This document shows, one piece after another, positions 48,078-64,000 of a stretch of DNA of 64,000 nt. The stretch is taken from NCBI GenBank assembly GCA_963664225.1, contig OY760937.1, positions 320,001 to 384,000 of the forward strand. The letters run 5' to 3'. The notes below the pieces were generated by a model. That model searched no databases, was not told the DNA's origin, and saw only the letters and a program-made list of their open reading frames with translations. Both the position numbers and the translations under genes were made by a program. Each line of letters begins with the position of its first letter. Within the stretch, counting starts at the first letter, position 1. The DNA comes from Verrucomicrobiia bacterium. Its GTDB lineage: Bacteria > Verrucomicrobiota > Verrucomicrobiia > Limisphaerales > UBA1319.

Positions 48078-49646
48078 ATGAGCAAGAGATTTTATCTGAC
48101 CACGGCCATTGATTATGTGAATGGCCAACCGCATTTGGGGCACGCCTATGAGAAGATCATCACGGATGTGATGGCGCGGGCCCAGCGAAGTGCGGGCGCC
48201 GAGGTGTTCTTTCTGACGGGCGCGGACGAGCACGGCCAAAAGGTGCAGCAGGCGGCGCACGCGGAAGGCAGGGCGGCGCAGGAGTATTGCGACGGGTTGG
48301 CGGCAACGTGGCAGGCCTTTGTCGCCCGGCTCGATGTGACCAACGACGATTACGTGCGCACCACCCAGCCGCGACACAAGGAAGTGGTTCAGGCAATTCT
48401 TTCCAAGCTTTACGCGGAGGGCCAGTTCTACAAGGCACCTTACCGGGGCTTTTATTCCACCAAGGAAGAGACCTTCCTGACGGAAAAGGACCGCCGCCCG
48501 GACGGCAACTTCGATCCTTCCTACGGCGAGGTGGTGGAGCTGGTGGAGGAGAATTATTATTTCAAGCTCAAGGACCATCAGCAGTGGTTGATCGATTATA
48601 TCGAGAGCCATCCGGACTTCATTTTTCCCGAGAACCGCAAAAACGAAGTGCTCGGTTTTCTGAAGAACAACACGCTGGAGGATTTGTGCATCAGCCGTCC
48701 GTCCTCGCGGTTGAGCTGGGGTATCCCGCTGCCGTTCGATCCGACCTACGTGACGTATGTCTGGTTCGACGCGTTAAGCAATTACGTCACGCTTCCGGCG
48801 GCATTGGGCGATCCGCTCCTTTGCAAGGCGCTCGGATGCGGGGCCGGAAAACCGGTGGGGCCGGAGCTCTGGCCTGCCGACAAACAGGTCATCGGCAAGG
48901 ACATTGTGAAGTTTCACGCCGTTTATTGGCCGATCATGCTCAAGGCCATGGGCGTGCCCCTGCCCAAACAGCTCGTGGTTCACGGCTGGTGGCAGAAGGA
49001 CGGCCAGAAGATGAGCAAGAGCACCGGCAACGTGGTCGATCCGCTCGCCGTGGTCAATGAGTGGGGCGTGGACGCTTTTCGTTATTACGTCGTGCGCGAA
49101 CTGGCCATTGGACCGGACGGCAACTGGACCGATGCGGGATTCTCCGCGCGCTATCATGCCGAGTTGGCCAATGGGCTTGGCAACCTGTTGAATCGTTCGC
49201 TCTCCATGCTCAACCGCTACCGCAAGGGCGTGGTGCCGCAGCCTTCCTCAGAGCTGGCGAAGGACGCCGAAAAAGCGGCTGCGGAATCGTGGGCCGCGAT
49301 CGAGAAAAACGAATTGCAGGACGCGCTGGTGAGCATTTGGGGGCTCGTCAACCGGGCCAACCAATATGTAGATCAGACCGCGCCATTCAAGATGGCCAAG
49401 GACCCGGCCCAGAGCGCGCGCCTGGACGAGGTGCTTTACAATCTGGCGGAATCCTGCCGCATTCTGGCTGTATTGCTGTGGCCGTTCATTCCCGGCACCT
49501 CGGCCAGGATTTACGCCCAGCTGAATCTCAAGACCACGCCGGATAAGCGCTCAGAGGCCCAATGGGGCGGACTGGTCGCTGGCCATGTCATCGGCGCGCC
49601 GGAGGCCTTGTTTCCGCGCAGAGACCAGCCCGCCGCAGGGAAATAA
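48078..49646 (+). CDS. metG: Methionine--tRNA ligase
   Basis: YVNGQPHLGHAY, DEHGQK, YVWFDAL, GKDIVKFH, KMSKS. Confidence 0.97.
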   Translation: MSKRFYLTTAIDYVNGQPHLGHAYEKIITDVMARAQRSAGAEVFFLTGADEHGQKVQQAAHAEGRAAQEYCDGLAATWQAFVARLDVTNDDYVRTTQPRHKEVVQAILSKLYAEGQFYKAPYRGFYSTKEETFLTEKDRRPDGNFDPSYGEVVELVEENYYFKLKDHQQWLIDYIESHPDFIFPENRKNEVLGFLKNNTLEDLCISRPSSRLSWGIPLPFDPTYVTYVWFDALSNYVTLPAALGDPLLCKALGCGAGKPVGPELWPADKQVIGKDIVKFHAVYWPIMLKAMGVPLPKQLVVHGWWQKDGQKMSKSTGNVVDPLAVVNEWGVDAFRYYVVRELAIGPDGNWTDAGFSARYHAELANGLGNLLNRSLSMLNRYRKGVVPQPSSELAKDAEKAAAESWAAIEKNELQDALVSIWGLVNRANQYVDQTAPFKMAKDPAQSARLDEVLYNLAESCRILAVLLWPFIPGTSARIYAQLNLKTTPDKRSEAQWGGLVAGHVIGAPEALFPRRDQPAAGK

Positions 49647-51279
49647 ACAGGCCCCCGGGACCGGTTTGAATGGAAAAAGCGAATGGATTGCAAAATCGGC
49701 TTGCGAAATGCCGTGGGCATGGTTGAATGTGGTCCTTGGTTGCGCTTATGGTGGAATTGGCAGACACGCTACTTTGAGGTGGTAGTGGGGTAACCCGTGC
49801 AGGTTCAAGTCCTGCTAAGCGCACCACTCCACCACTCAACGATTTTTCGACGAGTGTTGACCACGGTTTGACGCAATAACCACGGGCTTTTTTGCAGTCG
49901 AGGACCAGGTTCGAGCCGAAGACTTTCAAGGCGAGATCCCTCTTCTCTTGAAGAGAACCCGAAACAGCGATTTGACCCGCGTTTTTAGCGGTTATTATCC
50001 AATTTTGGAACGGTTCGAGCCAATCGACGCGTCCTGCCGCCTGAGCGACCTTTTGCTCTTCCAAAGTCTTCTTTTGGCTCATCAATTTGGCCTTTTCTGC
50101 TGTGAATGTCTCCCGGTCGATGAGTTCATCCAAAAAAGTGTCGAGCAGCTTCTGGAGGCGAAGATTGAGCTTTTGGATTTCGGCTCTTTTTTGCTCCGCC
50201 AATTGCGCCGCCGATTGGGTGGACTCGCTTTTCTCCTTCTTGACCAGTTCAAGCATCGTATCCGCCCAGTCGGCAGGCATGGCAAATGGCGTCAGGAGCG
50301 CCGAAATCTCGGCGTTAAGGGCTTCTTCGCGAATGTAAGGCTGTTCGCACCATGAATTTAGGCGGCCTTTCTTGGTGCAGCGATAATAGGTGTGGCCTTT
50401 CTGAATTTCAGCGGTGATGGTGCCTCCACAGGTGGCGCAGTGCAGAAGGCCCATAAACGGCTTTGAGACGGTTTTCTTCTCCAGGGGTGAGAATCGCCAC
50501 CTGCGTTTGAAAATCGCATCGACCTTGTCAAAGAGGGCTTTGGATATGATCGGCTGGTGTGTGCCTTCATAAACATCGCCCTTGTAGCGGAAATGACCGT
50601 AATAGAAGGAATTCGAGAGCAATGACGATACGTATGTGCGGATGAGGGTGTGTCCGGTACGAGAAAAAACGCCACGCTCCGCGAAAAACGTTCGAATCGT
50701 GTCGATTGTGGCGTTTCCTGTGGCGTAAAGCTCAAATGCCTCTTTGATAATCGGGGCTCGCTCCTTGTCGATGATGATTTTCTTGGTGCGATAATCGTTC
50801 AGATAGCCGATGGGGGCACGACCAGGAAACTCACCGCGCCTGAGTTTTTCGCGAAGTCCGCGCTTGGTGTTCTCCGCAAGCGAGTCCACGTAGTATTTGC
50901 TCTGGCCGAACATGATGTTGAGCATGAATTTGCCCTGCGGGTCAGATTCAAAACGGAAGGTTGGAAATCGGAGAGTTTTAATTTTGCCGGTGTCGAGGAG
51001 ATATATTATTTGCCCGCCATCGATGCTGTTGCGGGCCAGACGGTCGGGATGCCAGGAGAGAATTCCATCGGCTTCACCTGCCTCGATACGGGAGATCATA
51101 TCATTGAAAATCACCCTTCCTGGTGATTTTGCCGACTGCTTCTCGATCATCTCGGCAACAACTCTTATGTGCTCGCGTTGCGCGAATTCGCGCAATTCAG
51201 CGAGTTGGGCTTCGATGGAGAGAACCTGCTTGTCCTCGGCATCGGTGGATTTTCTCGCATAGAGGAAAAGGTTATTCAT
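49588..51279 (-). CDS. Large serine recombinase; the last 77 aa are read-through of antisense tRNA and flank
   Basis: YARKST catalytic Ser, DRLARN, APIGY, GTHQPII, zinc ribbon CATCG...YYRC, coiled coil. Confidence 0.95.
   Translation of the reverse strand: MNNLFLYARKSTDAEDKQVLSIEAQLAELREFAQREHIRVVAEMIEKQSAKSPGRVIFNDMISRIEAGEADGILSWHPDRLARNSIDGGQIIYLLDTGKIKTLRFPTFRFESDPQGKFMLNIMFGQSKYYVDSLAENTKRGLREKLRRGEFPGRAPIGYLNDYRTKKIIIDKERAPIIKEAFELYATGNATIDTIRTFFAERGVFSRTGHTLIRTYVSSLLSNSFYYGHFRYKGDVYEGTHQPIISKALFDKVDAIFKRRWRFSPLEKKTVSKPFMGLLHCATCGGTITAEIQKGHTYYRCTKKGRLNSWCEQPYIREEALNAEISALLTPFAMPADWADTMLELVKKEKSESTQSAAQLAEQKRAEIQKLNLRLQKLLDTFLDELIDRETFTAEKAKLMSQKKTLEEQKVAQAAGRVDWLEPFQNWIITAKNAGQIAVSGSLQEKRDLALKVFGSNLVLDCKKARGYCVKPWSTLVEKSLSGGVVRLAGLEPARVTPLPPQSSVSANSTISATKDHIQPCPRHFASRFCNPFAFSIQTGPGGLFISLRRAGLCAETRPPARR
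49742..49826 (+). tRNA. tRNA-Leu(GAG)
   Basis: Acceptor GCGCTTA/TAAGCGC, anticodon loop TTGAGGT, long variable arm, GCAGG-TTCAAGT-CCTGC, encoded CCA. Confidence 0.97.
49821..49905 (-). repeat. 85-bp perfect inverted repeat, copy 1 (recombinase 3' end, overlapping the tRNA CCA)
   Basis: Base-by-base reverse complement of 51618-51702. Confidence 0.97.
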
Positions 51280-51351
51280 GGCATCTGAATATTAGCGCAA
51301 TATGCTTGCTCGTGCAAGCATATCAATAATTGAAACGACTCGACGACTGTA

Positions 51352-51513
51352 TCATCCCCGATCCCAGCGGGCGCGGGCCGCCAACTTGGCTATTCGTGAG
51401 CGCGCCTTCGCTGACAACTTTGCAGCGCGCGCTTGCCCTCCTTTGGAGGCACCAAGTTTCGAGAGCGCAACCGCTGCCGGGTTTTTCTTCTTTGATTGTG
51501 ATTCTCCAGACAT
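51352..51513 (-). CDS. 53-aa basic protein of the KNPAAVAL..GG.ARA..L...R..IA..AA.ARW type (absent from the ORF track)
   Basis: Manual translation MSGESQSKKKNPAAVALSKLGASKGGQARAAKLSAKARSRIAKLAARARWDRG. Confidence 0.85.
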   Translation of the reverse strand: MSGESQSKKKNPAAVALSKLGASKGGQARAAKLSAKARSRIAKLAARARWDRG

Positions 51514-51617
51514 GATTATGAAGTAGTATAAATGTTGTTGCGAGTAAACGCTAGTGGCGCAACAAATCGTTTCGGATTCTATCGGTTCTTAAACCGTGGT
51601 CAAATCGCAACTCGTCT

Positions 51618-51702
51618 GTCCTCGACTGCAAAAAAGCCCGTGGTTATTGCGTCAAACCGTGGTCAACACTCGTCGAAAAATCGTTGAGTGGTGGAGTGGT
51701 GC
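51618..51702 (+). repeat. 85-bp perfect inverted repeat, copy 2
   Basis: Reverse complement of 49821-49905. Confidence 0.97.
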
Positions 51703-51752
51703 CTCTGTATAACGCCGCTCGAACTTTCTTTCGAGGGCAAACATCGTCGTGA
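51618..51752 (+). other. Silent alternative 3' end of the recombinase gene
   Basis: Translates VLDCKKARGYCVKPWSTLVEKSLSGGVV (identical to the recombinase) then PLYNAARTFFRGQTSS*. Confidence 0.75.
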
Positions 51753-51845
51753 ACGTGCAATCCAACTTTTTGCCTCGCGTTTGAGGCAGACTCTTTTGGA
51801 CAATGTTCGAAGATCTTTTCACAAAAATCTGCACCGTTGATTGAG

Positions 51846-51866
51846 TGGAGACTACGAGATTCGAAC
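51846..51866 (-). other. tRNA 3'-end fragment (Ala/tmRNA-like), possible att relic
   Basis: GTTCGAATCTCGTAGTCTCCA corresponds to T-loop, 3' T-stem, acceptor strand and discriminator A. Confidence 0.5.
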
Positions 51867-52166
51867 CCCGTTGTCTCTTTGAAAAAGGGTATCCTCGAAC
51901 CTATCCCCGCACCTGTCCCCACGGCGGGGATACCCTGCGAATCAACGGCATCCTGTGTTTACCGTCGTTTTGTCGTGGTTTGTCCGCTTGACGGCATCCC
52001 CGACTTCGGTCGGTTTTATGGCTCGCACGGCTGCTGTTTGTGTGGAAGCCGTGCTCGCCAAAAACCTCCCTCATCGCTCACGCGAAAACGAGTTCACCGG
52101 CGGACGGGTTAATTTTCTTGGAAAATCCTCTTTTTTAAAGTCGCCATGAGGCGATCCCCGCATTTG

Positions 52167-53177
52167 TTATTGGACTTCGAGCTTGGTAACGAGATTATTA
52201 ACGCTTACGCCGCCTGCGGCACCGTTTTTAGCACTGAGCCCCAGGAGCATTTCCAACTGCAACCGACAGGAACCAGAGGCCGGAGATTTCTGATCATTTG
52301 ATACGAATTTGATTGTGGCCGTGATGGAATCATTGGGTTTGATTTCTGTGGCTGGGGAAAATGTGTTTGGCTGATACCCGTAACTTGAAAAGAATGCGAG
52401 GCTGATTCCTGAAACACTTGTTCGGTTGCCACTAAATTCAGAACCAGTCGAATCGGTGATTCGTCCATTTATGGTGCCCATGAGTTCAGTGCCTACGGCC
52501 ACCCAAATCGACTTCGCTTTGTTTTGATTTGTTAATGACATCGTAAGCAAGTATTGCGTATCATTTACGATACGAAGGGGCTGCAGGTCGATGCGGAGGT
52601 CTCCGAAGGTTTTGCTGGCAGAAGGCTTCTCATCACTGGCTGCTCCGGCTGCGGGTTCAGTAGCGGGGTGAGACATGAGTTGCTGCACATTCGTGTCTGT
52701 CATAAATTCAGCCCTGGCGGCTCCCACGATCTCGGCGGTTTCAGTGGTGATTACCTTTGCTGTAAGGCTGGTCTTTTGGCCTTTCGGTATGATCGTTCCG
52801 ATCACCAGTGCGTCCACACCGGCAAATTTTCCAAGCTGTTTGGCGTTTTCCGGGTCCACAAGACCCAGTGATGTTAGCTTGTGCTCAGCCAGGATTCTTC
52901 TGAGATTTGCCCGGTCGAGCACTGAGAAATCCCGTTTGCCCATCACAAAGTTTACCGTCAATTGCTCAGCGATATATTTTCCGAGTTCACCGCTTGGCGA
53001 GCCTTGAAGATCTGTAAAATCGACCACTGCCACTTTTTTCATGGCCTTGTCTTTAATTGGGGCCGCGAGCTTTTCGGTCAGGTCGGAAAGCTCTTTGTCC
53101 ATATCCTGGGTTTGGGCGAGCGCATGGCCGCACAAAACGATGCACAGAAAGGCTGTCAGGGAGCGTTGCAGATTCAT
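52167..53177 (-). CDS. Secreted FlgO/CsgG-like protein
   Basis: Signal peptide; VAVVDF, VLDRANLRRILAE, AKQLGKFAGVDALVIG. Confidence 0.75.
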   Translation of the reverse strand: MNLQRSLTAFLCIVLCGHALAQTQDMDKELSDLTEKLAAPIKDKAMKKVAVVDFTDLQGSPSGELGKYIAEQLTVNFVMGKRDFSVLDRANLRRILAEHKLTSLGLVDPENAKQLGKFAGVDALVIGTIIPKGQKTSLTAKVITTETAEIVGAARAEFMTDTNVQQLMSHPATEPAAGAASDEKPSASKTFGDLRIDLQPLRIVNDTQYLLTMSLTNQNKAKSIWVAVGTELMGTINGRITDSTGSEFSGNRTSVSGISLAFFSSYGYQPNTFSPATEIKPNDSITATIKFVSNDQKSPASGSCRLQLEMLLGLSAKNGAAGGVSVNNLVTKLEVQ

Positions 53178-53202
53178 AACTTGGATTCTTGGTTGAATGA
53201 TC

Positions 53203-54021
53203 CTACTGGATCGACATTTTGGTGTCCTTTGAGATTTGTTTGATGAGGCGTTCTTCGGCCATTGAACGCGCCTCCACCTGTTTAAAACCGGAGCCATTTG
53301 CAGTGAATGTCCATGTTCCGCCTTGGACGCTTCTGGCGATTGGCAATACTTGCACCTCAAGCTGCATATTTGCGGTGACGAGATTTAGCAGAGAAGGGGT
53401 CGTTGAATACTGGACAGTCTGTTGAGAGAGTATGAGGGCGTCCAAGGAGTTGGCGACCTCCAGTTTGTTTAGAACATCGGTTGAACCGCCGAATACCGTG
53501 GCGAAAAGTTTGTCAGAAACGAATTCAGGTTTGAAAAATGAGGAGAGAAACTCGACGGAGTTGGTTTTGAAGTGCTGAGCCAGGGCGGTGCTTACGTTCT
53601 GGTTCAACTTTCCATCATCGGATACGACCACGATGGCCACTGATTTTGTTGAAGGCGTGCGATTAAAGCCGGTATTCAGATAGCGCGCCAAAAAACGTGC
53701 ATGTTTCGCCGCTTCTTCTTCGCGAAGTTTTGCTGCCGCCTCCTCATGGAGCTTCGTCACCCTGGCCTCTTCAGCGGCTCTCTCCGCAGCAATCTCGCTG
53801 GCCCTGTTAGGTCGCTGCTCCTGTGGCTGGGGAATCGATACTGCTTGAGCAGGCGTTGGGTTGGCGACCTTTGGTTGATATTGTATTTGCGGGGTAGGCT
53901 GGTAAACCCGCTGCGGTTCTGAATATCCGGCTCTAAAGAAAAAGCAATTGATGGTCAGCGCGATGATGACAAGGCCACCAATAAAATACTTCAGCTTTTG
54001 TTTGTTCGACTCCGTGCTCAT
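53203..54021 (-). CDS. Membrane-anchored hypothetical protein
   Basis: TM helix, Pro/Gln linker, coiled coil and globular C-terminus; start inferred. Confidence 0.7.
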   Translation of the reverse strand: MSTESNKQKLKYFIGGLVIIALTINCFFFRAGYSEPQRVYQPTPQIQYQPKVANPTPAQAVSIPQPQEQRPNRASEIAAERAAEEARVTKLHEEAAAKLREEEAAKHARFLARYLNTGFNRTPSTKSVAIVVVSDDGKLNQNVSTALAQHFKTNSVEFLSSFFKPEFVSDKLFATVFGGSTDVLNKLEVANSLDALILSQQTVQYSTTPSLLNLVTANMQLEVQVLPIARSVQGGTWTFTANGSGFKQVEARSMAEERLIKQISKDTKMSIQ

Positions 54022-54268
54022 ACCGATCTGATTGTGCATTGGATTACACGGGCTTGCACTGGAGGATAAATCTGGCGAAAAGGGTTGACTATGGCAAGCC
54101 AACAATGGGGATAACAGGACATCCTGAAAATGTGGTATGATTTTTTGTTGTTCGTATTGTTCAGCCACACCTCTATTACCATGACGGCTCGCAGCAAACG
54201 TATGTCGTCATTTCGCACGCATGAAGGCCGCGCGGCGAGTTTCACTCGCGGAATGGAGGTATGCTTGG

Positions 54269-55531
54269 ATGGAACAAGACAACCTTGTATTTGTAGGGAA
54301 GCGACATGAGTGGGGTGATGACATCCCATTTGGAATTGATGTTGCCGCCCGACGCCAGCACGTCTATGTGATTGGACAGACCGGTTCGGGAAAATCCACC
54401 TTGCTTCGCAATTTGATCCTGCAAGACATCGAGGAAGGTCGCGGTGTGGGGGTAATTGATCCGCATGGTGATCTGGCGTCGGACATTTTGGAGCATATTC
54501 CACCGTGGCGGACTGGTGATGTTGTGTATTTCGATCCATCTGATGATCATCCACTTGCAATCAATCTATTTCGCGCCACAACCGATAATTGGCATCTCGT
54601 CACCTCGGGCATTGTGTCGGCATTCAAAAACATTTGGGGGAATTCCTGGGGGCCACGACTTGAATACGTGCTGTATGCGACGGTTGCGGCACTGGTGCAA
54701 TGCGACAATACAAGCCTTTTGGGAGTATCCCGGATGCTCTATGACGACAAATACCGATCCTGGGTCGTAAAGCAGGTCACAGACCCCATGGTGCGGTCAT
54801 TTTGGATAAATGAGTTTGCCAATTATGATCGCAGTTTTCGGAATGAAGTCGTGAGCCCCATTCAAAACAAGGTTGGGCAGATATTCCTTGCTCCCGCGCT
54901 TCGCAATGTCCTGGGGCAGGTCGGCATGAAAATCAATTTCCGCTTCATGATGGATCACAAGCGCATCTTTGTGGCCAATCTAAGCAAGGGCCTTATCGGC
55001 GAGGCACACAGCAGTCTCCTGGGATCACTTCTCGTTACGGGCTTCGAGTTGGCTGCGCTGTCGCGCGCCGACATTCCGGCCAATGAGCGCGAGGACTTCT
55101 TTTTGTATGCCGATGAGTTCCATCACTACGCGACCGATTCATTTGCGGGCATCCTTTCGGAAGCGCGCAAATACCGACTCTGTCTCACGCTCGCGCATCA
55201 ATATCTCGGACAGTTGACTGAGGAGATAAGCGATGCAGTGTTTGGCAACGTCGGCACGTTTCTCGCGTTTCGGGTGAGCGAAGCCGACGCATTAGTGCTC
55301 CAACGACAATTTGGCGACAATCTCAGTCCAGCGCATTTTACGGGCCTCGAAAATTTTGAATTATGTGCGCGACTGTTGAACAAAGAACCCTTCCTCGCGA
55401 CCTCGTTGCCGCCGTTGGAAACATCGAGGCGACGGCGGAAAATCATCATGCGAAATTCTCGCCAGAAATATTCCACGCGGAAAAAGGTGGTTGAAGAAAA
55501 GATTGAACGCTGGTTAAAAAGGAGGCATTGA
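54269..55531 (+). CDS. TraD/TrwB/VirD4-like coupling ATPase lacking a TM anchor
   Basis: RRQHVYVIGQTGSGKS, VIDPHGDL, LYADEFH, SEARKY, AHQYLGQL; GGAGG RBS. Confidence 0.85.
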   Translation: MEQDNLVFVGKRHEWGDDIPFGIDVAARRQHVYVIGQTGSGKSTLLRNLILQDIEEGRGVGVIDPHGDLASDILEHIPPWRTGDVVYFDPSDDHPLAINLFRATTDNWHLVTSGIVSAFKNIWGNSWGPRLEYVLYATVAALVQCDNTSLLGVSRMLYDDKYRSWVVKQVTDPMVRSFWINEFANYDRSFRNEVVSPIQNKVGQIFLAPALRNVLGQVGMKINFRFMMDHKRIFVANLSKGLIGEAHSSLLGSLLVTGFELAALSRADIPANEREDFFLYADEFHHYATDSFAGILSEARKYRLCLTLAHQYLGQLTEEISDAVFGNVGTFLAFRVSEADALVLQRQFGDNLSPAHFTGLENFELCARLLNKEPFLATSLPPLETSRRRRKIIMRNSRQKYSTRKKVVEEKIERWLKRRH

Positions 55532-56352
55532 TTTTGAGTATGATTATTGAATCAACAGACCCCTCCACGAGCCGGTCGCGGTTCATAACAAGGACATACG
55601 TGAATATGGCGGTTATCACTGCCATGTTTATCCTCGGTGTAATCGTGCTTTCGTTTTTGTCATCGGTGCTTTTTCCAGGTTCCTCTATGACCATGTTGAT
55701 CTTCGATGGCATCGCCCTGGCGTGCGCGTATTATTTCTATATTCTATGGGAAAAACGCCCAATTCGCTTGGTGTGTCGAAACTGCAATAAAATCATTTTG
55801 AGCAATACGCCGTGGTTTTGTGCCGCGTGCAATCGGCCAAACACGAATACGACCGAATTTCCCTTTGTTCATAAATGCGAGCATTGTGGCGCGGAGCCGA
55901 AGGCTTATCGGTGTCATAATCCGGAATGCAAAGAGATAATTTATTTGTCGGAGGACGAGGACAAGACAAATTACGCCCACCGCTTGAACTCGCCGGATGA
56001 AAATTCAGAGCAGGATAAACGCACCCAGCAATTAAAGACGAAGCTGCAAATGAAAGAGGACAGGGAACATGAGATTTTGATGGCGCAATCCGATGTCACT
56101 TTGATAGAGCTCAAGCAACGGCACAAGTTTATCAAAGGTCTGATCAAATCCTCAAAGAAAAAGCCACCGATTGAATCGAAAAGAGAAAATCTGAAGGAAT
56201 TCTTCGGCACTTCCATAGCGGCTGAACAGGCAGCGCGCGAACAAAAGGCGGCTAACGCCATTGAATGCAAGGGCGATGCAGCGGAGCGCAGGCGGAGAGA
56301 TCGCGTCGTGGATTCCTGGCTGGAGCGCGAAAAGGCAGGAGACAATGAATAA
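55528..56352 (+). CDS. Two-TM protein with Cys-rich zinc ribbons and a coiled coil
   Basis: CRNC, CAAC, CEHC, CHNPEC; overlaps the ATPase stop codon. Confidence 0.75.
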   Translation: MILSMIIESTDPSTSRSRFITRTYVNMAVITAMFILGVIVLSFLSSVLFPGSSMTMLIFDGIALACAYYFYILWEKRPIRLVCRNCNKIILSNTPWFCAACNRPNTNTTEFPFVHKCEHCGAEPKAYRCHNPECKEIIYLSEDEDKTNYAHRLNSPDENSEQDKRTQQLKTKLQMKEDREHEILMAQSDVTLIELKQRHKFIKGLIKSSKKKPPIESKRENLKEFFGTSIAAEQAAREQKAANAIECKGDAAERRRRDRVVDSWLEREKAGDNE

Positions 56353-56376
56353 CCCCGTTCCTGTGAACGGGGTTAT
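56349..56376. terminator. Perfect 12-bp-stem hairpin between convergent genes
   Basis: ATAACCCCGTTC-CTGT-GAACGGGGTTAT. Confidence 0.6.
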
Positions 56377-56378
56377 CT

Positions 56379-56906
56379 CTAATGCGACGGTTCATAACGA
56401 GTCGCAATGAGACGTGGATCGCACGTCTTTGGCTGAACAGCCAGGCGGGCAACCTCTTCATACATGCGTAAGTGTTCTTGAAGATCGCGATGCATGATGT
56501 AACGGAATGATGCGCCGTAGGCTTTCGGCATATTGCGTATTTGTCCTTCGATGGTGTCGAGCAGAGCTTGAACATCGAGTTCTTCAGTCTGAGCATTCAT
56601 CTGATCCTGAGTTTGGAATGGATAACCGTTATCCTGTTCCTGTCTGAGGTGTGGAAAAATGCGGTCATGAATCTCTCGGTTGATACGCAGTTTGAAAATC
56701 TTCCAGCGCATCCGTGAAAAGAACGATTCCTTGGTATTTCTGTGCATAAACCATTGGTGGTCAATGTTTGTTGACAGTTGAAGAAACCAACCACGTCGTA
56801 TGGCGGGCTTCACACGACTGTCAAACGGAGGAGGGATGCCAGGGAAAAGTCTGCTACGTATTATATCACAAAAGTCGAGTTGGTACAAGGGGCGCGGGGC
56901 TCGCAT
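56379..56906 (-). CDS. Hypothetical protein (start uncertain)
   Basis: Longest ORF in the gap; ends at the hairpin. Confidence 0.45.
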   Translation of the reverse strand: MRAPRPLYQLDFCDIIRSRLFPGIPPPFDSRVKPAIRRGWFLQLSTNIDHQWFMHRNTKESFFSRMRWKIFKLRINREIHDRIFPHLRQEQDNGYPFQTQDQMNAQTEELDVQALLDTIEGQIRNMPKAYGASFRYIMHRDLQEHLRMYEEVARLAVQPKTCDPRLIATRYEPSH

Positions 56907-56979
56907 TGACGATTAAAACAAGCCTTGCTTTAATGATAGGCGGAACATTCGTTCCTTAACTTCAACATAAAGGAGATCG

Positions 56980-57279
56980 ATGAACACGCCATCTGCTCGT
57001 TCTGACGAGCCGCAGCCAAAATTCCTTGTCGGCCGAATCGTGGCAACGCCAAATGCGATCAATCAAATTCCCAGTGATGAGATTATGAATGCGCTGGCAC
57101 GCCACATTCAGGGCGATTGGGGAGCGTTGGATACGGACGATTGGGACTCAAACGAATGCGCCCTTAAAAACGGCGGACGTTTGTTTTCTCAGTATCGCTC
57201 GACACAAGACATCAAGTTTTGGATAACAACGGAAGCCGACAGGTCGGTGACGACCGTTCTTTTACCGGAGGACTATTGA
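56980..57279 (+). CDS. Conserved mobile-element small protein
   Basis: GRIVATP...RH..GDWG...N..AL..G.RL.S.Y...WI.TE.DRS.TT.LLPEDY pattern; AAGGAG RBS. Confidence 0.85.
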   Translation: MNTPSARSDEPQPKFLVGRIVATPNAINQIPSDEIMNALARHIQGDWGALDTDDWDSNECALKNGGRLFSQYRSTQDIKFWITTEADRSVTTVLLPEDY

Positions 57280-58308
57280 ATGAACAAATCATGGATAGAC
57301 TTCAAGGCGCTTCGTGCGGAATTGGATTTCGCGGAAGTGCTCCACCACTACGGTGTGGAGGTTAAAGGCAACGGCAAACAACATCATGGTTTTTGTCCGC
57401 TGCCGAATCACAATGGAAATCGCAATTCGCCTTCGTTTTCGGCGAATCTTGAACGAGGGATATTCCAGTGTTTCGGCTGCGGTGCAAAAGGCAATGTTCT
57501 TGAATTCGCCGCTTTCATGGAAAAATCCGATCCCCAGGATGGTGCGGCTTTGCGCGAAGTTGCTCTCAAACTCCAACAACGCTTTTGTCCGGAACTTGGA
57601 GACCAGCCAAAGGAAATTAAAAAGCCCATTCAACAGCGGTTGGAGCCCATCAAACCGGAGAGTGAACTGCCGGTTCTCGTCAACGTCCCGCTCGATTTTG
57701 AGCTCAAGGACTTGGATCAAACCCACCCATACGCCTTTGATCGAGGGTTTACAAAGGACACCATTGCCCATTTCGGGCTCGGCTTTTGTTCACGCGGAAT
57801 GCTCAAAGGTCGTCTGGCGATTCCGCTTCATGACGATCAGGGGAGATTGATAGGGTATGCGGGCCGCCTCGTCGATGACACCAACGTGAGTGAAGAGAAT
57901 CCTCGTTACCGGTTTCCGGGCAAGCGAGAAAGAGACGGCAAGGTCTTCGAATTTCGAAAGACTGCATTTCTTTACAACGGCTATCGGATCAAAGCTCCGG
58001 TGGATGATCTCATCGTTGTCGAAGGGTTCACCTCGGTGTGGTGGTTGCATCAAAACGGCCAGCCTCGAGTGGTTGCTACCATGGGTGCCGACTGCTCGGA
58101 AAAACAGGCGGAACTTATCGTTTCCTTCGTGAAGCCAAAGGGACGTGTCTGGATTGTTCCCGATGGGGATATCGCAGGGGAGCGACTGGTGCATTCGCTC
58201 CTATTTCAGGTTTCGCCACACCGTCTGGTACGGTGGATGAAACTTGCCAACGACATTCAGCCGACGGATTTGTCCGCTGAACAATTAAAAACATGCTTCA
58301 TCTTGTGA
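57280..58308 (+). CDS. DnaG-like primase (CHC2 zinc finger plus TOPRIM)
   Basis: CPLPNH...SPSF...CFGCG; GYAGR; VVEGF; PDGD. Confidence 0.9.
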   Translation: MNKSWIDFKALRAELDFAEVLHHYGVEVKGNGKQHHGFCPLPNHNGNRNSPSFSANLERGIFQCFGCGAKGNVLEFAAFMEKSDPQDGAALREVALKLQQRFCPELGDQPKEIKKPIQQRLEPIKPESELPVLVNVPLDFELKDLDQTHPYAFDRGFTKDTIAHFGLGFCSRGMLKGRLAIPLHDDQGRLIGYAGRLVDDTNVSEENPRYRFPGKRERDGKVFEFRKTAFLYNGYRIKAPVDDLIVVEGFTSVWWLHQNGQPRVVATMGADCSEKQAELIVSFVKPKGRVWIVPDGDIAGERLVHSLLFQVSPHRLVRWMKLANDIQPTDLSAEQLKTCFIL

Positions 58309-58336
58309 AGCGCAGCGATCCGTGAGGGTCGCTTTT

Positions 58337-58558
58337 TTAAACGTCGCGAACCAGGTCGCGGACGTGAACTTTTAGAGCTGTTGCAATGCGTGTAAGCGCA
58401 TCCACTGATATCGTCTTTTCCATGCGCTCCACTTCACCGATGTATTTCGGGTTTAAATCCGCCAGTTCTCCAAGCCGTTCCTGGGTCAGGTTCGCCTTCT
58501 TGCGGTAATGGCGAATGGCTTGACCAAGTGCTTTTCGGTTTTCTGGATGTGTAACCAC
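58337..58558 (-). CDS. XRE-family HTH regulator (C-protein-like)
   Basis: LGQAIRHYRKKANLTQERLGELADL...YIGEVER. Confidence 0.9.
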   Translation of the reverse strand: MVTHPENRKALGQAIRHYRKKANLTQERLGELADLNPKYIGEVERMEKTISVDALTRIATALKVHVRDLVRDV

Positions 58559-58595
58559 AGGCCGTCAGCCTAGCCGACAGGCGCTCCCTCATTAC

Positions 58596-58611
58596 ACCAG
58601 CTATAGCTGGT
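58596..58611. promoter_or_regulatory. Perfect 16-bp palindrome, probable XRE operator
   Basis: ACCAGCTATAGCTGGT between divergent genes. Confidence 0.65.
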
Positions 58612-58657
58612 ATTATTTTCTTGCAATCTTCCCGCTTTTGCCTGATTATTCAGCCAT

Positions 58658-58915
58658 ATGAACAACCCTATCGAATTCCTTCGCAGAATCGGCCCAGACC
58701 CTCATGCAAACGGCAGGCAGACGGTTGCGCTCAATAATTGCCCGGACATTTTTGAACTCAAATCCGGGGATTTCGCCATCATCGGCATCGACATTACAGA
58801 TACCGCCAAACCGAAATTGCCGCCGACGGCGGGCTGCGGCCCCGATGAACGGATTGTCTTTATCCCGCGAAATCTGCTCGTCGAAGCCAGGTCTGACATT
58901 CCCAAAACGGTTTAG
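58658..58915 (+). CDS. Hypothetical protein (CPDIFEL motif)
   Basis: Compact 85-aa ORF divergent from the XRE gene. Confidence 0.75.
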   Translation: MNNPIEFLRRIGPDPHANGRQTVALNNCPDIFELKSGDFAIIGIDITDTAKPKLPPTAGCGPDERIVFIPRNLLVEARSDIPKTV

Positions 58916-58956
58916 GGGATTTGGTGTAATCCCGCCTGCTCCGGTATAATGGGCGG

Positions 58957-59409
58957 ATGGGAGCATTTCAATGGCTTGGAGAGCATTGGTTCGACTGCGT
59001 TCAAATCGTTGGCGTGGTCGGTGGTTTGCTGCTGACCGCATATACGATTCACAAGGATGCGCGGGCGCGACAAATCAGCAACCTGATCGCGTTGAATGAT
59101 CGGCACGATGAAATATGGAGCACGTTTTACGAGCGTCCTCAATTGGCGCGTGTTCTCAAGAGCACCGTCGATTTGAAAAAGCAGCCTGTGTCCGATGAGG
59201 AGCACCTGTTTGTGAAAATGCTTTTCATCCACCTGGATACCATTCGGCGGACAACCAAAGCGGGAATGTTCATCAAGATTGTGGAAATCCAGAATGACAT
59301 TCACGGCTTCATAAAACTTCCCATACCCAAAGCGGTTTGGGAAAAACTCAAACCCTTTCAGGATGAGGATTTCATTTCATTTGTGGAAGATTGTCAGAAT
59401 CTCCGGTAA
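58957..59409 (+). CDS. Single-TM hypothetical protein
   Basis: N-terminal TM helix plus a helical domain. Confidence 0.7.
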   Translation: MGAFQWLGEHWFDCVQIVGVVGGLLLTAYTIHKDARARQISNLIALNDRHDEIWSTFYERPQLARVLKSTVDLKKQPVSDEEHLFVKMLFIHLDTIRRTTKAGMFIKIVEIQNDIHGFIKLPIPKAVWEKLKPFQDEDFISFVEDCQNLR

Positions 59410-60388
59410 CTACCTTGCCTTCGAGGAGACATCTCTTTTTGATTTTCGATTCGATGAATGACTCGCGCTCCGGCTGGTGTCGGTATTCAAACCGGCGCCT
59501 GGGCCGTTCGTTGTAAAATGGGGTGCCAATCGTCAGGTTGCGGTAATCCATCGGCAGAATCCAGATCGCGCCAAGAGGGTCGGCGATTACATCTGCAAGG
59601 GTTGTGAGCCACGTTCGGCTCAATATGGGCGGGTCGTTCTGCGCCAGCCGTTCCGCTGTGTTATTCCGACGCTCGGCGGATTTGAGAACCATGAGAACAC
59701 GAAAGGGGAATTCCTTGAAATCAGTTCGCGGAACACCATTGCGAACAGCAAACCCGCCGGATTTGTAATATTCCCGGTAACAGTCAGCCTTGGCGACGAG
59801 GACATCCTGAGTTTCGCTTGAACGATCCACTTCAAGAAAACAGTCGTAGGCATAACCTTTTGTACCGGGTTCCTTTTCGTGGATACGGAGGAAACCGTCC
59901 GGCTTTACCAAAATATTGGTGCCGTCGCCAGGACGGGATGCCTCGAATTGGTATAACAGCGGCCATGTGCTGAATTCAAGGATCGAAAAAGTTTCAGATT
60001 TAACGAGTGCGGCATGGAACGCCGCTTTTACATCCATGATCTCAAGTTCATGGCGCAGAGTGACTTCGCTCACATTTGCGCGTGCTTCGAAAGAGCTTTT
60101 TCCAAGTGACGGGTATTCTGCAAGATGACCTTGGTCGGTGAGCAGGGTAAAGGCCTTACGGGTTAAAAAGAGAACGGATGACTCATTTGCATTTCGTTTT
60201 CGTTCGCCAATATATCCGGCGGCTTTGAGTTTTTGGAGGCGCTTTTTGGTATATTCGCGTTTGCTCTCGAAATACAGGGTTGCAATGTGCGCGCCGGTCA
60301 TTACGCGGGATTCAAAAAGGCCACGGAGGAGGGCGATGTCGCGGTCTTGAAGTTGTATGGGTTCAACGTGTGTTTTCAAGGTGGCCAT
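59372..60388 (-). CDS. Replication-relaxation (Replic_Relax) family relaxase
   Basis: N-terminal wHTH (LQDRDIALL), LRHEL, VKPDG, FLEVDRSSE, FRVLMV. Confidence 0.88.
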   Translation of the reverse strand: MATLKTHVEPIQLQDRDIALLRGLFESRVMTGAHIATLYFESKREYTKKRLQKLKAAGYIGERKRNANESSVLFLTRKAFTLLTDQGHLAEYPSLGKSSFEARANVSEVTLRHELEIMDVKAAFHAALVKSETFSILEFSTWPLLYQFEASRPGDGTNILVKPDGFLRIHEKEPGTKGYAYDCFLEVDRSSETQDVLVAKADCYREYYKSGGFAVRNGVPRTDFKEFPFRVLMVLKSAERRNNTAERLAQNDPPILSRTWLTTLADVIADPLGAIWILPMDYRNLTIGTPFYNERPRRRFEYRHQPERESFIESKIKKRCLLEGKVVTGDSDNLPQMK

Positions 60389-60874
60389 GTGTGAATATTT
60401 TTAATTGATACGCCTTCTTTGATAACTTCATCGACGATGGTTTTAAATCCACAATTCAAGCGGAAAACAAATATATGTTAGTGAAATAGACGCGTATAGT
60501 CAATCGGTTTGGATTGCGAATCAAATGCGGTTATGGGGGGGTGTGGATTGTGCAATGTGTTTGTGAACGTCCATTCAAGTCCCTCGGCTTTTTATATGCA
60601 ACATAGTGCGTCATCGCACCAAAGTGCGTGCGGTTAAAAATGAGCTCGGTTGCGGCGATTGCTTTGACGTTTAAAAACTCATTTTGTCCCATTCTTGGAC
60701 AAAATGCGTGTTAGCACACTCTTTGATAATAAAAGAATAAAATAAATCATAATTGTTTTGACACAGGAAAGGGTGCTGATATTATGTCTCCTAATAAATG
60801 TTAGGGCAGGAAAGTCGGTCCTGCGGTGTTTCTTCCTGCCGGTTCGGGTTAATTGTCCGTCAATATTCTATCCT

Positions 60875-63811: not shown

Positions 63812-63845
63812 TATATTCAAGAATCAAACAAATAAGAGGAAGCCA

Positions 63846-64000
63846 ATGAATATGGATGCAATTGTATCGATGGCGGGATATCACCGTTCTACTTTTCTTA
63901 AAGCGACCCGGTTAATTGTTTTATTATGTGGTCTGGTCTTTGGAGCTAATCAAGTTCAAGCCTCCAAGCCGTGGGATTCATGGGCTGAGGATCCTTTGTT
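63846..64000 (+). CDS. Partial secreted protein running off the window
   Basis: Open frame MNMDAIVS...RLIVLLCGLVFGANQVQA, signal-peptide-like. Confidence 0.55.
   Translation, partial: MNMDAIVSMAGYHRSTFLKATRLIVLLCGLVFGANQVQASKPWDSWAEDPL

What the first reader, a model, noticed from the sequence alone, without database searches (positions are those of the whole stretch)
49821..51752. Large serine recombinase bracketed by an 85-bp perfect inverted copy of its own 3' end: candidate C-terminus-swapping invertible switch
Seen: 49821-49905 and 51618-51702 are exact reverse complements. They enclose the recombinase, a 53-aa basic protein and their upstream region. The repeat encodes the last 28 element-derived recombinase codons, and identity ends at the tRNA-Leu CCA region. 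In the present orientation the ORF runs on through antisense tRNA (563 aa). Copy 2 continues in frame as PLYNAARTFFRGQTSS*, so inversion would give a 502-aa protein. Established: some integrases carry attP within their 3' end and change tail on integration, but the other half-site then lies at the far end of the element. Inference: copy 2 is an intact attP-like site with the native tail, held beside the gene. It could act as a phase-variable switch of recombinase activity or stability, a spare attP, or an autoregulatory binding site. I do not know a described element with this layout.
Basis: partly seen in the sequence, partly recalled or inferred. Interest (0 to 1): 0.88.

Follow-up and report, generated by a model that had tools for sequence, protein, structure and literature searches.

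The report
Serine-recombinase island with mirrored spare attachment site
A 32-kb mobile island sits at the end of a leucine tRNA gene; inserting it cut the last 16 codons off its own recombinase gene, and it keeps a flipped spare copy of that gene end and docking site, a design shared by a large and apparently undescribed family.

Summary
The DNA right of copy 2 (window 51695-52110, 416 nt) is a perfect inverted copy of the far end of the island, about 30 kb away and outside the window. So the island has three sites that share the core GCACCACT: attL at the tRNA-Leu CCA end, an intact inverted attP, and attR.

The large serine recombinase (LSR) gene runs across its own attP. Integration replaced its conserved 16-residue tail with read-through into antisense tRNA.

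An inverted copy flanks the LSR gene in 66 of 80 genome loci and 28 of 80 metagenome loci. The ..LYxxARTxF tail is encoded by the internal site in 59 of 79 loci.

Free phase variation is not supported. The tRNA abuts the LSR 3' end in about 100 loci and the upstream copy in only one, which is degenerate. The cargo segment, by contrast, is inverted between related elements.

Best reading, about 40%: integration disables the recombinase gene, and the inverted spare lets rare inversion rebuild it.

New here: the P arm mimics a tRNA T-loop set 4 bp further out. This scan has noted the family before in CPR genomes, not in Verrucomicrobiota. My paper searches found no description.

The parts
49742..49826 (+). 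tRNA-Leu(GAG), the integration target. Its T-loop to CCA stretch is the B arm of attL.
   Evidence: ARAGORN; Rfam tRNA, 51.7 bits
49821..49828 (+). Core GCACCACT at attL: discriminator plus CCA plus 2 nt. It is shared by attL, the internal attP and attR.
   Evidence: Three-way comparison of the junctions
49821..49905 (+). IR1 copy 1: core plus P' arm. On the minus strand it encodes the last 28 element-derived codons of the recombinase.
   Evidence: unitig depth is twice that of the segment between the arms
49588..51279 (-). Large serine recombinase ORF as integrated, 563 aa. Residues 1-486 (49822-51279) are element-derived. The remaining 77 residues are read-through into antisense tRNA-Leu and host DNA.
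51352..51513 (-). Conserved 53-aa basic protein upstream of the recombinase (KKNPAAVAL..LG..KGG.ARA..LS...RS.IA..A...RW). Function unknown.
   Evidence: A homologue lies 46-92 nt upstream of the LSR match in 28 loci and 213 nt upstream in one. Alignment A3. PHROG 2384, unknown function, E 8.4e-5. No Pfam or NCBIfam match.
51576..51603 (-). Best sigma-70-like promoter for the small ORF and recombinase (TTGACC, 16 nt, TAGAAT). It lies inside the segment between the repeats, so copy 2 is probably not part of the recombinase mRNA.
   Evidence: 10 of 12 matches. A -10-like box sits at the corresponding place in relatives. This is a consensus match only.
51618..51702 (+). IR1 copy 2: the inverted P' arm plus core of the internal attP.
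51695..52110 (+). IR2 near copy (416 nt): the inverted core plus P arm of the internal attP. Its perfect partner is genome 401420-401835 (attR), outside the window at window-equivalent 81420-81835.
   Evidence: unitig depth about twice the flanks; folds with z = -3.83 as RNA
51702..51752 (+). Native recombinase tail PLYNAARTFFRGQTSS plus stop, in frame with copy 2.
51717..51724 (-). T-loop-like motif GTTCGAGC of the P arm (read on the minus strand). It sits 4 nt further from the CCA-type end than the real T-loop does in the tRNA.
   Evidence: offset of 4 nt in 43 and 5 nt in 3 of 49 unambiguous loci, out of 61
51769..51790 (+). Terminator-like hairpin just after the native-tail stop codon.
   Evidence: pattern match only
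52111..64000 (.). Cargo segment Z, which continues to genome 401419 (about 29.3 kb in all). It encodes a CsgG/FlgO-like protein, two TraD/TrwB-like ATPases, a DnaG-type primase, Replic_Relax, an RHS-repeat protein, a methyltransferase, HD and CoiA proteins, ArdC and HNH.
   Evidence: G+C is about 50%, against about 59% in the host flank.

Best explanation
What it is (about 90% sure). It is a 32-kb integrative, mobilisable-type island inserted by a large serine recombinase (LSR) exactly at the CCA end of tRNA-Leu. The LSR gene runs across its own attP. Integration therefore swapped its conserved last 16 codons, stop and terminator for read-through into antisense tRNA.

The island keeps a third site: an intact attP of 493 bp (P arm 408 + core 8 + P' arm 77), inverted, just upstream of the LSR operon. 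An excised circle would therefore carry two 493-bp inverted attP copies. They would separate a 1.7-kb recombinase module from the 29-kb cargo.

Target choice (inferred from the sequences). The P arm mimics a tRNA 3' end. Its GTTCGA T-loop motif sits 4 bp further from the crossover than the real T-loop in attB. This is the offset known for the zinc-ribbon domain (DBD2) between attP and attB half-sites. It explains how relatives use many different tRNA genes.

How the spare site most likely works (about 35-40%; inferred, not shown).
1. Integration through the attP inside the gene is self-inactivating, or 'suicidal'. The integrated gene lacks its native tail and terminator and converges on the tRNA gene, so the element is locked in.
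2. The inverted spare holds the native gene end. Rare inversion of the 1.7-kb module across the 85-nt repeat would re-fuse the gene to its native tail and terminator. Homologous recombination is the likely agent, because A118 integrase does not recombine attL with attP. The inversion would also place the module downstream of the tRNA promoter in the sense direction.
3. That re-armed state would be short-lived, ending in excision or loss. This would explain why assemblies almost never show it.
4. An inverted orientation is the only way to carry the duplicate without deletion by recombination between the copies.
For: Three-site structure. Both repeats at double depth.

Conserved layout: IR1 in 66 of 80 genome loci. 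Of the 14 without it, 10 lack flanking DNA. IR1 also in 28 of 80 metagenome loci, many of them short or partial. An abutting second repeat in 19 genome loci.

Target: a tRNA of many identities abuts the LSR 3' end in 46 genome loci, 46 metagenome loci and 8 of 9 further loci from the same phylum.

Native tail: present in 59 of 79 loci when read across the internal site. Synonymous variation occurs at Leu (6 codons), Thr (4), Tyr and Phe, which points to selection on the protein. A terminator-like hairpin follows the native stop.

T-loop mimic: offset of 4 nt in 43 of 49 loci and 5 nt in 3 of 49. This matches DBD2 lying 4 bp closer to the centre on attB half-sites in SPbeta, with 5 bp predicted for many other integrases (PMC11722253, section 6 read).

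Asymmetry between the two modules: the cargo is inverted relative to the LSR module in 3 of 8 pairs of related elements, L019 vs L027 and L103 vs L099 and L115. The LSR module is flipped relative to the tRNA in only 1 locus against about 100. That locus (L128) has a P arm that diverges right after ARTF.

LSR genes look alive: uninterrupted in 76 of 77 and 34 of 38 near-full-length matches.

Repeat identity: the two copies are mostly 98-100% identical within an element but differ between elements, as expected from repeated recombination between them.

A118 integrase: no reaction of attL or attR with attP or attB; attP x attP runs at under 5% of attP x attB (PMC3556126, passages).

Precedents: attP inside a gene whose product changes on integration (BPs repressor, PMC4557955 abstract); att inside the integrase gene in archaeal 'suicidal' integrases (PMC8371274 passages).
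Against: - No inversion, excision or circle was observed in this strain. Only 31-mer unitigs were available. They give the same pieces for both orientations, and the circle junction is identical to the internal attP.
- That the tRNA-derived tail disables the enzyme is assumed. The AlphaFold2 model of a native-tail homologue leaves the tail undocked, with pLDDT under 50. The tail's role is therefore unknown.
- Part of the tail conservation is at DNA level. Ala is always GCT (41 of 41) and Arg is CGA in 47 of 59. This overlaps the T-loop-like binding motif.
- The fixed orientation could equally come from the recombinase preferring the attP next to its own gene.
- If the re-armed enzyme needs a directionality factor to excise, the 3-kb relatives have no obvious gene for one.
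- Four loci with adequate flanks lack the repeat: L008, L022, L040, L084.
- The one flipped locus is a single case.
Confidence: 0.4

Rival explanations
1. Two-site circle, like the yeast 2-micron plasmid. The inverted copy matters only in the excised circle. There the two attP copies let the recombinase, or homologous recombination, flip one half against the other, or simply double the chance of integration. The orientation seen in genomes is fixed because the enzyme prefers the attP at the end of its own gene (action in cis). The tail swap is incidental.
For: An excised circle would have two 493-bp inverted repeats around the recombinase module. The cargo is found in both orientations relative to the recombinase module. 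A118 integrase recombines two attP sites at low rate (PMC3556126 passage).
Against: No circle was observed. The 3-kb relatives carry no replication genes, so an amplification role like that in the 2-micron plasmid is unlikely across the family. Preference in cis over only 1.7 kb would have to be almost absolute: about 100 loci to 1. It does not explain protein-level conservation of a tail that is cut off in every integrated copy.
Confidence: 0.2
2. Operator or decoy. The recombinase binds the internal attP beside its own promoter and represses or titrates itself. The inverted duplicate is a regulatory site.
For: Copy 2 ends 15 nt from the best promoter-like -35 box. A conserved box, ACGAGTTGCGATTT, abuts the repeat in relatives. 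The upstream copy always lies 50-500 nt before the LSR start, or about 1-1.3 kb where another gene intervenes.
Against: A binding site needs about 50 bp. It does not need 493 bp of perfect identity that includes the tail codons, stop and terminator. The core of the internal site is about 100 nt from the -35 box. Orientation and completeness of the site are conserved, which a mere operator would not require.
Confidence: 0.12
3. Phase-variable switch. The 1.7-kb module flips often in the integrated state, and both protein forms have a role.
For: Perfect inverted repeats bracket the gene. The alternative junction (LSR 3' end followed by an intact P arm) exists in a contig of run X20 at depth 28 and in locus L128. 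Five of 120 listed homologous proteins carry the native tail.
Against: Consensus orientation is the same in about 100 loci against 1. Run X20 lacks the host flank 49400-49702, so that junction belongs to another genome or a free form. A118 integrase does not recombine attL with attP (PMC3556126 passage).
Confidence: 0.1
5. Relic without function, or an assembly artefact.
For: None for an artefact. For a relic: some elements have decayed copies of 81-94% identity.
Against: Both repeats have double depth in unitigs. The same layout occurs across Verrucomicrobiota, Patescibacteria, Planctomycetia, Nitrospirota, Omnitrophota and other MAGs with recombinases only 45-79% identical. The repeats evolve in concert.
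Confidence: 0.03

Closest known systems
Large serine integrases of phages and integrative elements (A118/LI, SPbeta SprA, phiC31, Bxb1; also XisF, CcrA/B)
   Same: Domain order is Resolvase, Recombinase, zinc ribbon, with long coiled-coil helices. Serine 11 in the RKS motif is invariant. The sites are short and share only a few bases. The outer motif is offset by 4-5 bp between the P-type and B-type half-site (PMC11722253, section 6).
   Different: NCBIfam scores are far below the cut-offs of XisF, CcrA, CcrB and CcrC. The target is the CCA end of many different tRNA genes, reached through a T-loop mimic. attP lies inside the last codons of the enzyme's own gene. A third, intact, inverted attP is kept inside the integrated element. 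No directionality factor was identified.
Archaeal 'suicidal' SSV1-type integrases
   Same: The att site lies within the integrase gene, so integration disrupts that gene (PMC8371274 passages).
   Different: Those are tyrosine recombinases, split into two large parts, and the review calls them exclusive to archaea. Here the enzyme is a bacterial serine recombinase, only the last 16 codons are exchanged, and a spare gene end is kept in inverted orientation.
Integration-dependent immunity of mycobacteriophage BPs and relatives
   Same: attP lies inside a coding region. Integration changes the C-terminus of the product and thereby its activity (PMC4557955 abstract).
   Different: There the gene is the repressor, the integrase is a tyrosine enzyme (recalled), the lost tail is a degradation tag, and no inverted spare is kept.
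Yeast 2-micron plasmid (Flp/FRT in long inverted repeats); Salmonella Hin with hin inside its invertible segment (both recalled, not looked up)
   Same: Two long inverted repeats that carry the recombination site divide a circle into two unique segments, one of which holds the recombinase gene. The recombinase gene lies within a segment bounded by inverted sites.
   Different: Flp is a tyrosine recombinase that recombines the two identical sites efficiently. Hin is a small serine invertase that needs Fis and an enhancer. Here the enzyme is an integrase type that normally pairs only attP with attB. One of the two copies is split by integration.

Membership tests
Large serine recombinase (serine integrase) | N-terminal resolvase catalytic domain with the nucleophilic serine | tested here: met
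   PF00239, E 7e-22. R9, K10 and S11 are invariant in 41 sequences.
Large serine recombinase (serine integrase) | Recombinase domain (DBD1) followed by a zinc-ribbon domain (DBD2) with an inserted coiled coil | tested here: met
   PF07508, E 1.9e-13, and PF13408, E 1.4e-9. Long helices 336-383 and 389-414 appear in the model of homologue P0010.
Large serine recombinase (serine integrase) | attP and attB half-sites carry the same outer motif, 4-5 bp closer to the centre in attB | tested here: met
   Left arms only. GTTCRA lies 4 nt (43 loci) or 5 nt (3 loci) further out in P than in the tRNA, among 49 unambiguous loci of 61. No mirrored motif was found in P'.
Large serine recombinase (serine integrase) | Unidirectional attP x attB reaction, reversed by a directionality factor | not testable with these tools
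   No assay was possible. No known directionality factor was recognised.
Named equivalogs XisF, CcrA, CcrB, CcrC | Score above the curated NCBIfam cut-off | tested here: not met
   100 bits against a cut-off of 375 (XisF), 95 against 900 (CcrB), 88 against 700 (CcrA), 54 against 900 (CcrC).
Small serine DNA invertases (Hin/Gin/Pin) | About 190-aa enzyme: catalytic domain plus a C-terminal helix-turn-helix, acting on two identical inverted sites | tested here: not met
   The protein has 486 or more residues with LSR domains. The two inverted sites are not equivalent: attL against attP.
Archaeal suicidal (SSV-type) integrases | att site inside the integrase gene | tested here: met
   The core lies 16 codons before the native stop.
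Archaeal suicidal (SSV-type) integrases | Tyrosine recombinase fold | tested here: not met
   Serine recombinase domains only.
tRNA-end LSR elements with an internal inverted attP (family seen by this scan; no published name found) | A tRNA gene abuts the LSR 3' end; IR1 pairs the LSR 3' end with a site upstream of the gene; IR2 abuts that site and pairs with the far end; the native tail ..RTxF is encoded by the internal site | tested here: met
   All four features are present in the window and genome. The same features recur in relatives.

The most novel reading that the evidence does not exclude
The family is a bacterial serine-recombinase counterpart of 'suicidal' integration, with a built-in reset. 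Integration cuts off the enzyme's conserved C-terminal tail and so locks the element without any directionality factor. An inverted spare of the gene end and attP lets a rare inversion re-arm the enzyme and release the element. Directionality would then be written into DNA architecture rather than into a partner protein. A T-loop mimic in attP would make every tRNA gene with an encoded CCA a potential target.
Probability: 0.3. Interest if true: 0.9.

Novelty: new variant of a known kind. Interest (0 to 1): 0.78.

Why it matters
Serine integrases are prized genome-engineering tools because they are simple and one-way. How direction is set without a partner protein is an open question for many of them.

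This family would add three things:
- A recognition rule (T-loop plus CCA, copied in attP with a 4-bp offset) that explains targeting of many different tRNA genes.
- An enzyme whose own gene end is exchanged by its own reaction.
- A conserved mirrored spare site, whose purpose can now be tested.

This window matters beyond the earlier CPR cases for two reasons. The element sits in a complete 5.8-Mb Verrucomicrobiota-type genome for which organism-labelled sequencing runs exist, which suggests a culture may be available. And it carries a 29-kb cargo with transfer-type genes. Flipping, excision and transfer could therefore be measured directly.

Tried and rejected
- Orientation in this strain: only Logan unitigs were on hand. 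They are identical for both orientations. No empty attB junction was among the 24 of 39 loose ends shown. This says nothing about excision.
- Run X20 holds a junction of the LSR 3' end with an intact P arm, but it lacks the host flank. It is therefore not evidence for flipping in this strain.
- Empty site in relatives: the right flank was searched in 30 related genomes. No close match was found. The flank gene belongs to a multi-copy family, so this test was not possible.
- Mirrored T-loop motif in the P' arm: not found.
- AlphaFold2 of native-tail homologue P0010: mean pLDDT 85.5, but the tail (482-502) is under 50 and undocked, so it is uninformative.
- Complex prediction of the LSR with the 53-aa protein: no verdict, score 0.00. 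This is neither for nor against binding.
- The 53-aa protein has no Pfam or NCBIfam match, only PHROG 2384 of unknown function.
- Rfam on 49500-52400 finds only the tRNA above its gathering score.
- Wider look in the phylum: 10 of 401 sampled genomes (own genome included) have a match at E <= 1e-100, and only one of them is a close relative.
- Papers: five searches and look-ups in the tycheposon preprint and in Durrant et al. 2022 gave no description of this layout. In the latter, 'tRNA' and 'inverted repeat' do not occur in the main text. Supplements were not read.
Full report
OBSERVATION

The 85-nt arms 49821-49905 and 51618-51702 are exact reverse complements. They occur only twice in the 5.78-Mb single-contig genome. 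tRNA-Leu(GAG) lies at 49742-49826 on the + strand, so the repeat begins 6 nt inside its CCA end.

Between the arms lie two genes. One is a recombinase ORF, 49588-51279 on the - strand, 563 aa, with Resolvase, Recombinase and zinc-ribbon domains. The other is a 53-aa basic ORF at 51352-51513 on the - strand. Read in the recombinase frame, copy 2 continues as PLYNAARTFFRGQTSS-stop.

In Logan unitigs of two runs that hold 98% of the stretch, the 85-nt repeat has twice the depth of the 1772-nt piece between the arms: 37.3 against 18.7, and 33.7 against 17.7. The repeat is therefore not an assembly artefact. These runs may come from the same sample as the assembly.

THE REST OF THE STRUCTURE

The DNA to the right of copy 2 has a perfect inverted partner 30 kb away, outside the window. 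Genome 371695-372110 (window 51695-52110, 416 nt) pairs with genome 401420-401835.

Lining up the three junctions gives one shared core, GCACCACT:
- attL = tRNA, core, P'.
- Internal site = P, core, P', inverted.
- attR = P, core, host flank.

The internal site is thus an intact attP of 408 + 8 + 77 = 493 bp.

The island spans genome 369821-401835, about 32 kb, with about 50% G+C against about 59% in the host flank. Its cargo, by Pfam, comprises:
- two TraD/TrwB-like ATPases;
- a DnaG-type primase;
- a Replic_Relax protein;
- ArdC;
- an RHS-repeat protein;
- a methyltransferase;
- HD, CoiA and HNH proteins.

This is the gene set of an integrative, mobilisable or conjugative-type element. If the island excised by attL x attR, the circle would carry two 493-bp inverted attP copies. 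They would separate a 1.7-kb recombinase module (X) from a 29.3-kb cargo (Z).

RELATIVES

The recombinase has thousands of homologues: 7860 with E <= 0.001 among 8000 scored. In the 120 listed, most C-termini after the conserved ...KPWSLLVE..GGMV look like translated antisense tRNA (GFEPAT, GLEPRT, GIEPT). Five carry a ..LYDAARTFFQGQ-type tail.

I fetched 80 genome loci. They come from Verrucomicrobiota, many Patescibacteria, MAGs labelled Gammaproteobacteria, Planctomycetia, Nitrospirota and Omnitrophota. I also fetched 80 metagenome loci of closer relatives.

An inverted repeat pairing the recombinase 3' end with a site upstream of the gene is present in 66 of the 80 genome loci. Of the 14 without it, 10 end too close to the gene to tell, and 4 have flanks but no repeat. 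It is present in 28 of the 80 metagenome loci, many of which are short or partial.

In 19 genome loci a second repeat abuts the upstream copy and pairs with a site 1-5 kb away. That is the same three-site layout with a small cargo.

A tRNA gene of many identities (Leu, Val, Lys, Arg, Met, Gly, Gln, Thr, Asn, Ser and others) overlaps the outer end of the 3' copy by a few bases. This holds in 46 genome loci, 46 metagenome loci and 8 of 9 further loci from a sample of the phylum.

Recombinase ORFs are uninterrupted in 76 of 77 and 34 of 38 near-full-length matches.

Many contigs break within a few hundred bases of the gene, as expected at repeats.

THE TAIL

Reading across the internal site gives the motif (L/F/I)(Y/F)xx(A/V/I)RTxF before the first stop in 59 of 79 loci. 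The codons show two layers of constraint.
- DNA level: Ala is always GCT (41 of 41) and Arg is mostly CGA (47 of 59).
- Protein level: Leu uses six codons, Thr all four, and Tyr and Phe both of theirs.

In this window a terminator-like hairpin follows the native stop.

SITE RECOGNITION

In 61 loci I compared the tRNA 3' part (B arm) with the P arm of the internal site. The P arm carries a T-loop-like GTTCGAGC. In 49 loci with unambiguous hits, it lies 4 nt (43 loci) or 5 nt (3 loci) further from the CCA-type end than the true T-loop does.

In SPbeta integrase complexes, DBD2 lies 4 bp closer to the centre on attB half-sites, and 5 bp is predicted for many integrases (PMC11722253, section 6 read). 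I infer that the zinc-ribbon domain reads the T-loop. This explains the use of many tRNA genes. Identity between attP and attB is limited to the discriminator, CCA and 0-3 more bases. No mirrored motif was found in P'.

ORIENTATION

If the 1.7-kb module flipped freely, consensus assemblies should show both states. They do not. The tRNA abuts the recombinase 3' end in about 100 loci. It abuts the upstream copy in one, L128, and there the P arm diverges right after ARTF.

The cargo behaves differently. It is inverted relative to the recombinase module in 3 of 8 pairs of related elements that share 400 nt or more of cargo: L019 vs L027, and L103 vs L099 and L115. So recombination between the inverted copies does happen over evolutionary time. 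The near-perfect identity of the copies within elements, against their differences between elements, points the same way. The flipped state of the recombinase module, however, is almost never what persists.

MECHANISM (INFERENCE)

I read this as self-inactivating integration with a spare.

- The free element expresses the native 502-aa enzyme.
- Integration through the attP inside the gene exchanges the tail and terminator. It also sets the gene head-on against the tRNA gene, which locks the element.
- The inverted spare holds the native end.
- Rare inversion across the 85-nt repeat would rebuild the gene and put it downstream of the tRNA promoter. Homologous recombination is the likely agent, since A118 integrase does not recombine attL or attR with attP (PMC3556126 passages).
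- That state would be transient, which would explain its rarity.
- Integration through the other attP copy would leave the enzyme intact and, I assume, reversible. The observed isomer would then be the end state in which elements accumulate.
- Only an inverted duplicate is safe from deletion.

None of these steps is shown. The AlphaFold2 model leaves the tail undocked, and no reads could resolve orientation.

RIVALS

- A 2-micron-like two-site circle, with the recombinase preferring the site at its own gene end.
- An operator or decoy for the recombinase.
- True phase variation.
- mRNA fold-back. This one is weakened here because the best promoter lies downstream of copy 2, and leader-to-coding complementarity is at chance level.

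KNOWN RELATIVES OF THE IDEA

- Archaeal 'suicidal' tyrosine integrases carry att inside their own gene. The review calls them exclusive to archaea (PMC8371274 passages).
- Mycobacteriophage BPs has attP inside its repressor gene, and integration shortens the product (PMC4557955 abstract).
- The 2-micron plasmid and Hin are layout analogies that I recall and did not look up.

By domains the protein is a large serine recombinase. It is far below the cut-offs of XisF and CcrA/B/C.

Five paper searches found no description of a tRNA-CCA-targeting serine recombinase with an internal inverted attP.

EARLIER NOTES OF THIS SCAN

The scan's earlier notes describe the same family in CPR/Patescibacteria genomes. 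I reached the structure before reading them. None of the notes returned by a word search that included 'Verrucomicrobiota' held all the search words, and those shown describe CPR/Patescibacteria genomes.

What I think is added here:
- the 4-bp T-loop offset;
- the contrast between a fixed recombinase module and a flippable cargo;
- a large transfer-type cargo in a complete genome.

VERDICT

The element is a new variant of a known kind (a serine-integrase element). Interest is high because the design is conserved, unexplained and now testable.

Noticed in passing
window 51840-51885 (minus strand), inside the 416-nt repeat: A second tRNA-3'-end look-alike (GGTTCGAATC...TCTCCA) lies about 140-180 nt from the core in the P arm. 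It is about 3 nt shorter than a real T-loop-to-CCA stretch. ARAGORN and Rfam do not call it. It may be a fossil of an earlier attachment site.
   Followed up: partly
window 51703-52110: The P arm folds far better than shuffles as RNA (-144.3 kcal/mol, z = -3.83). A GC-rich hairpin (GGGTATCCCC...GGGGATACCC) recurs downstream of the native stop in relatives L087, L098 and L129. No Rfam family matches.
   Followed up: partly
window 51604-51617 and relatives: A conserved box, ACGAGTTGCGATTT, abuts the inner edge of the upstream repeat copy in most Verrucomicrobia-type relatives. It could be a protein binding site next to the promoter.
   Followed up: no
window 63846-64000, continuing in L004:2-5878: A 2011-aa RHS-repeat protein lies in the cargo, followed by small ORFs of 175 and 142 aa. 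The second has weak EF-hand/dockerin-like hits. This is a possible polymorphic toxin with an immunity gene.
   Followed up: no
window 54221-55531 and L004:7079-8881: There are two TraD/TrwB-like coupling-type ATPases, plus Replic_Relax (59372-60388), a DnaG-type primase (57280-58308) and ArdC (L004:12818-13744). No mating-pore genes were recognised, which suggests a mobilisable rather than a self-transmissible element.
   Followed up: partly
genome 402132-403286 (right flank of the island, L165): The flank gene belongs to a family with at least 8 further partial matches elsewhere in the same genome, at 69-83% DNA identity.
   Followed up: no
L031, L050, L054, L030: Some CPR loci hold two such recombinase cassettes in tandem at neighbouring tRNA genes, each with its own repeat pairs.
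   Followed up: no
L177, L179, L180, L182 (same phylum, 43-47% identical recombinases): In a more distant branch the inverted repeat at the recombinase 3' end is 315-506 nt long and the open frame runs to 622-1013 aa.
   Followed up: no
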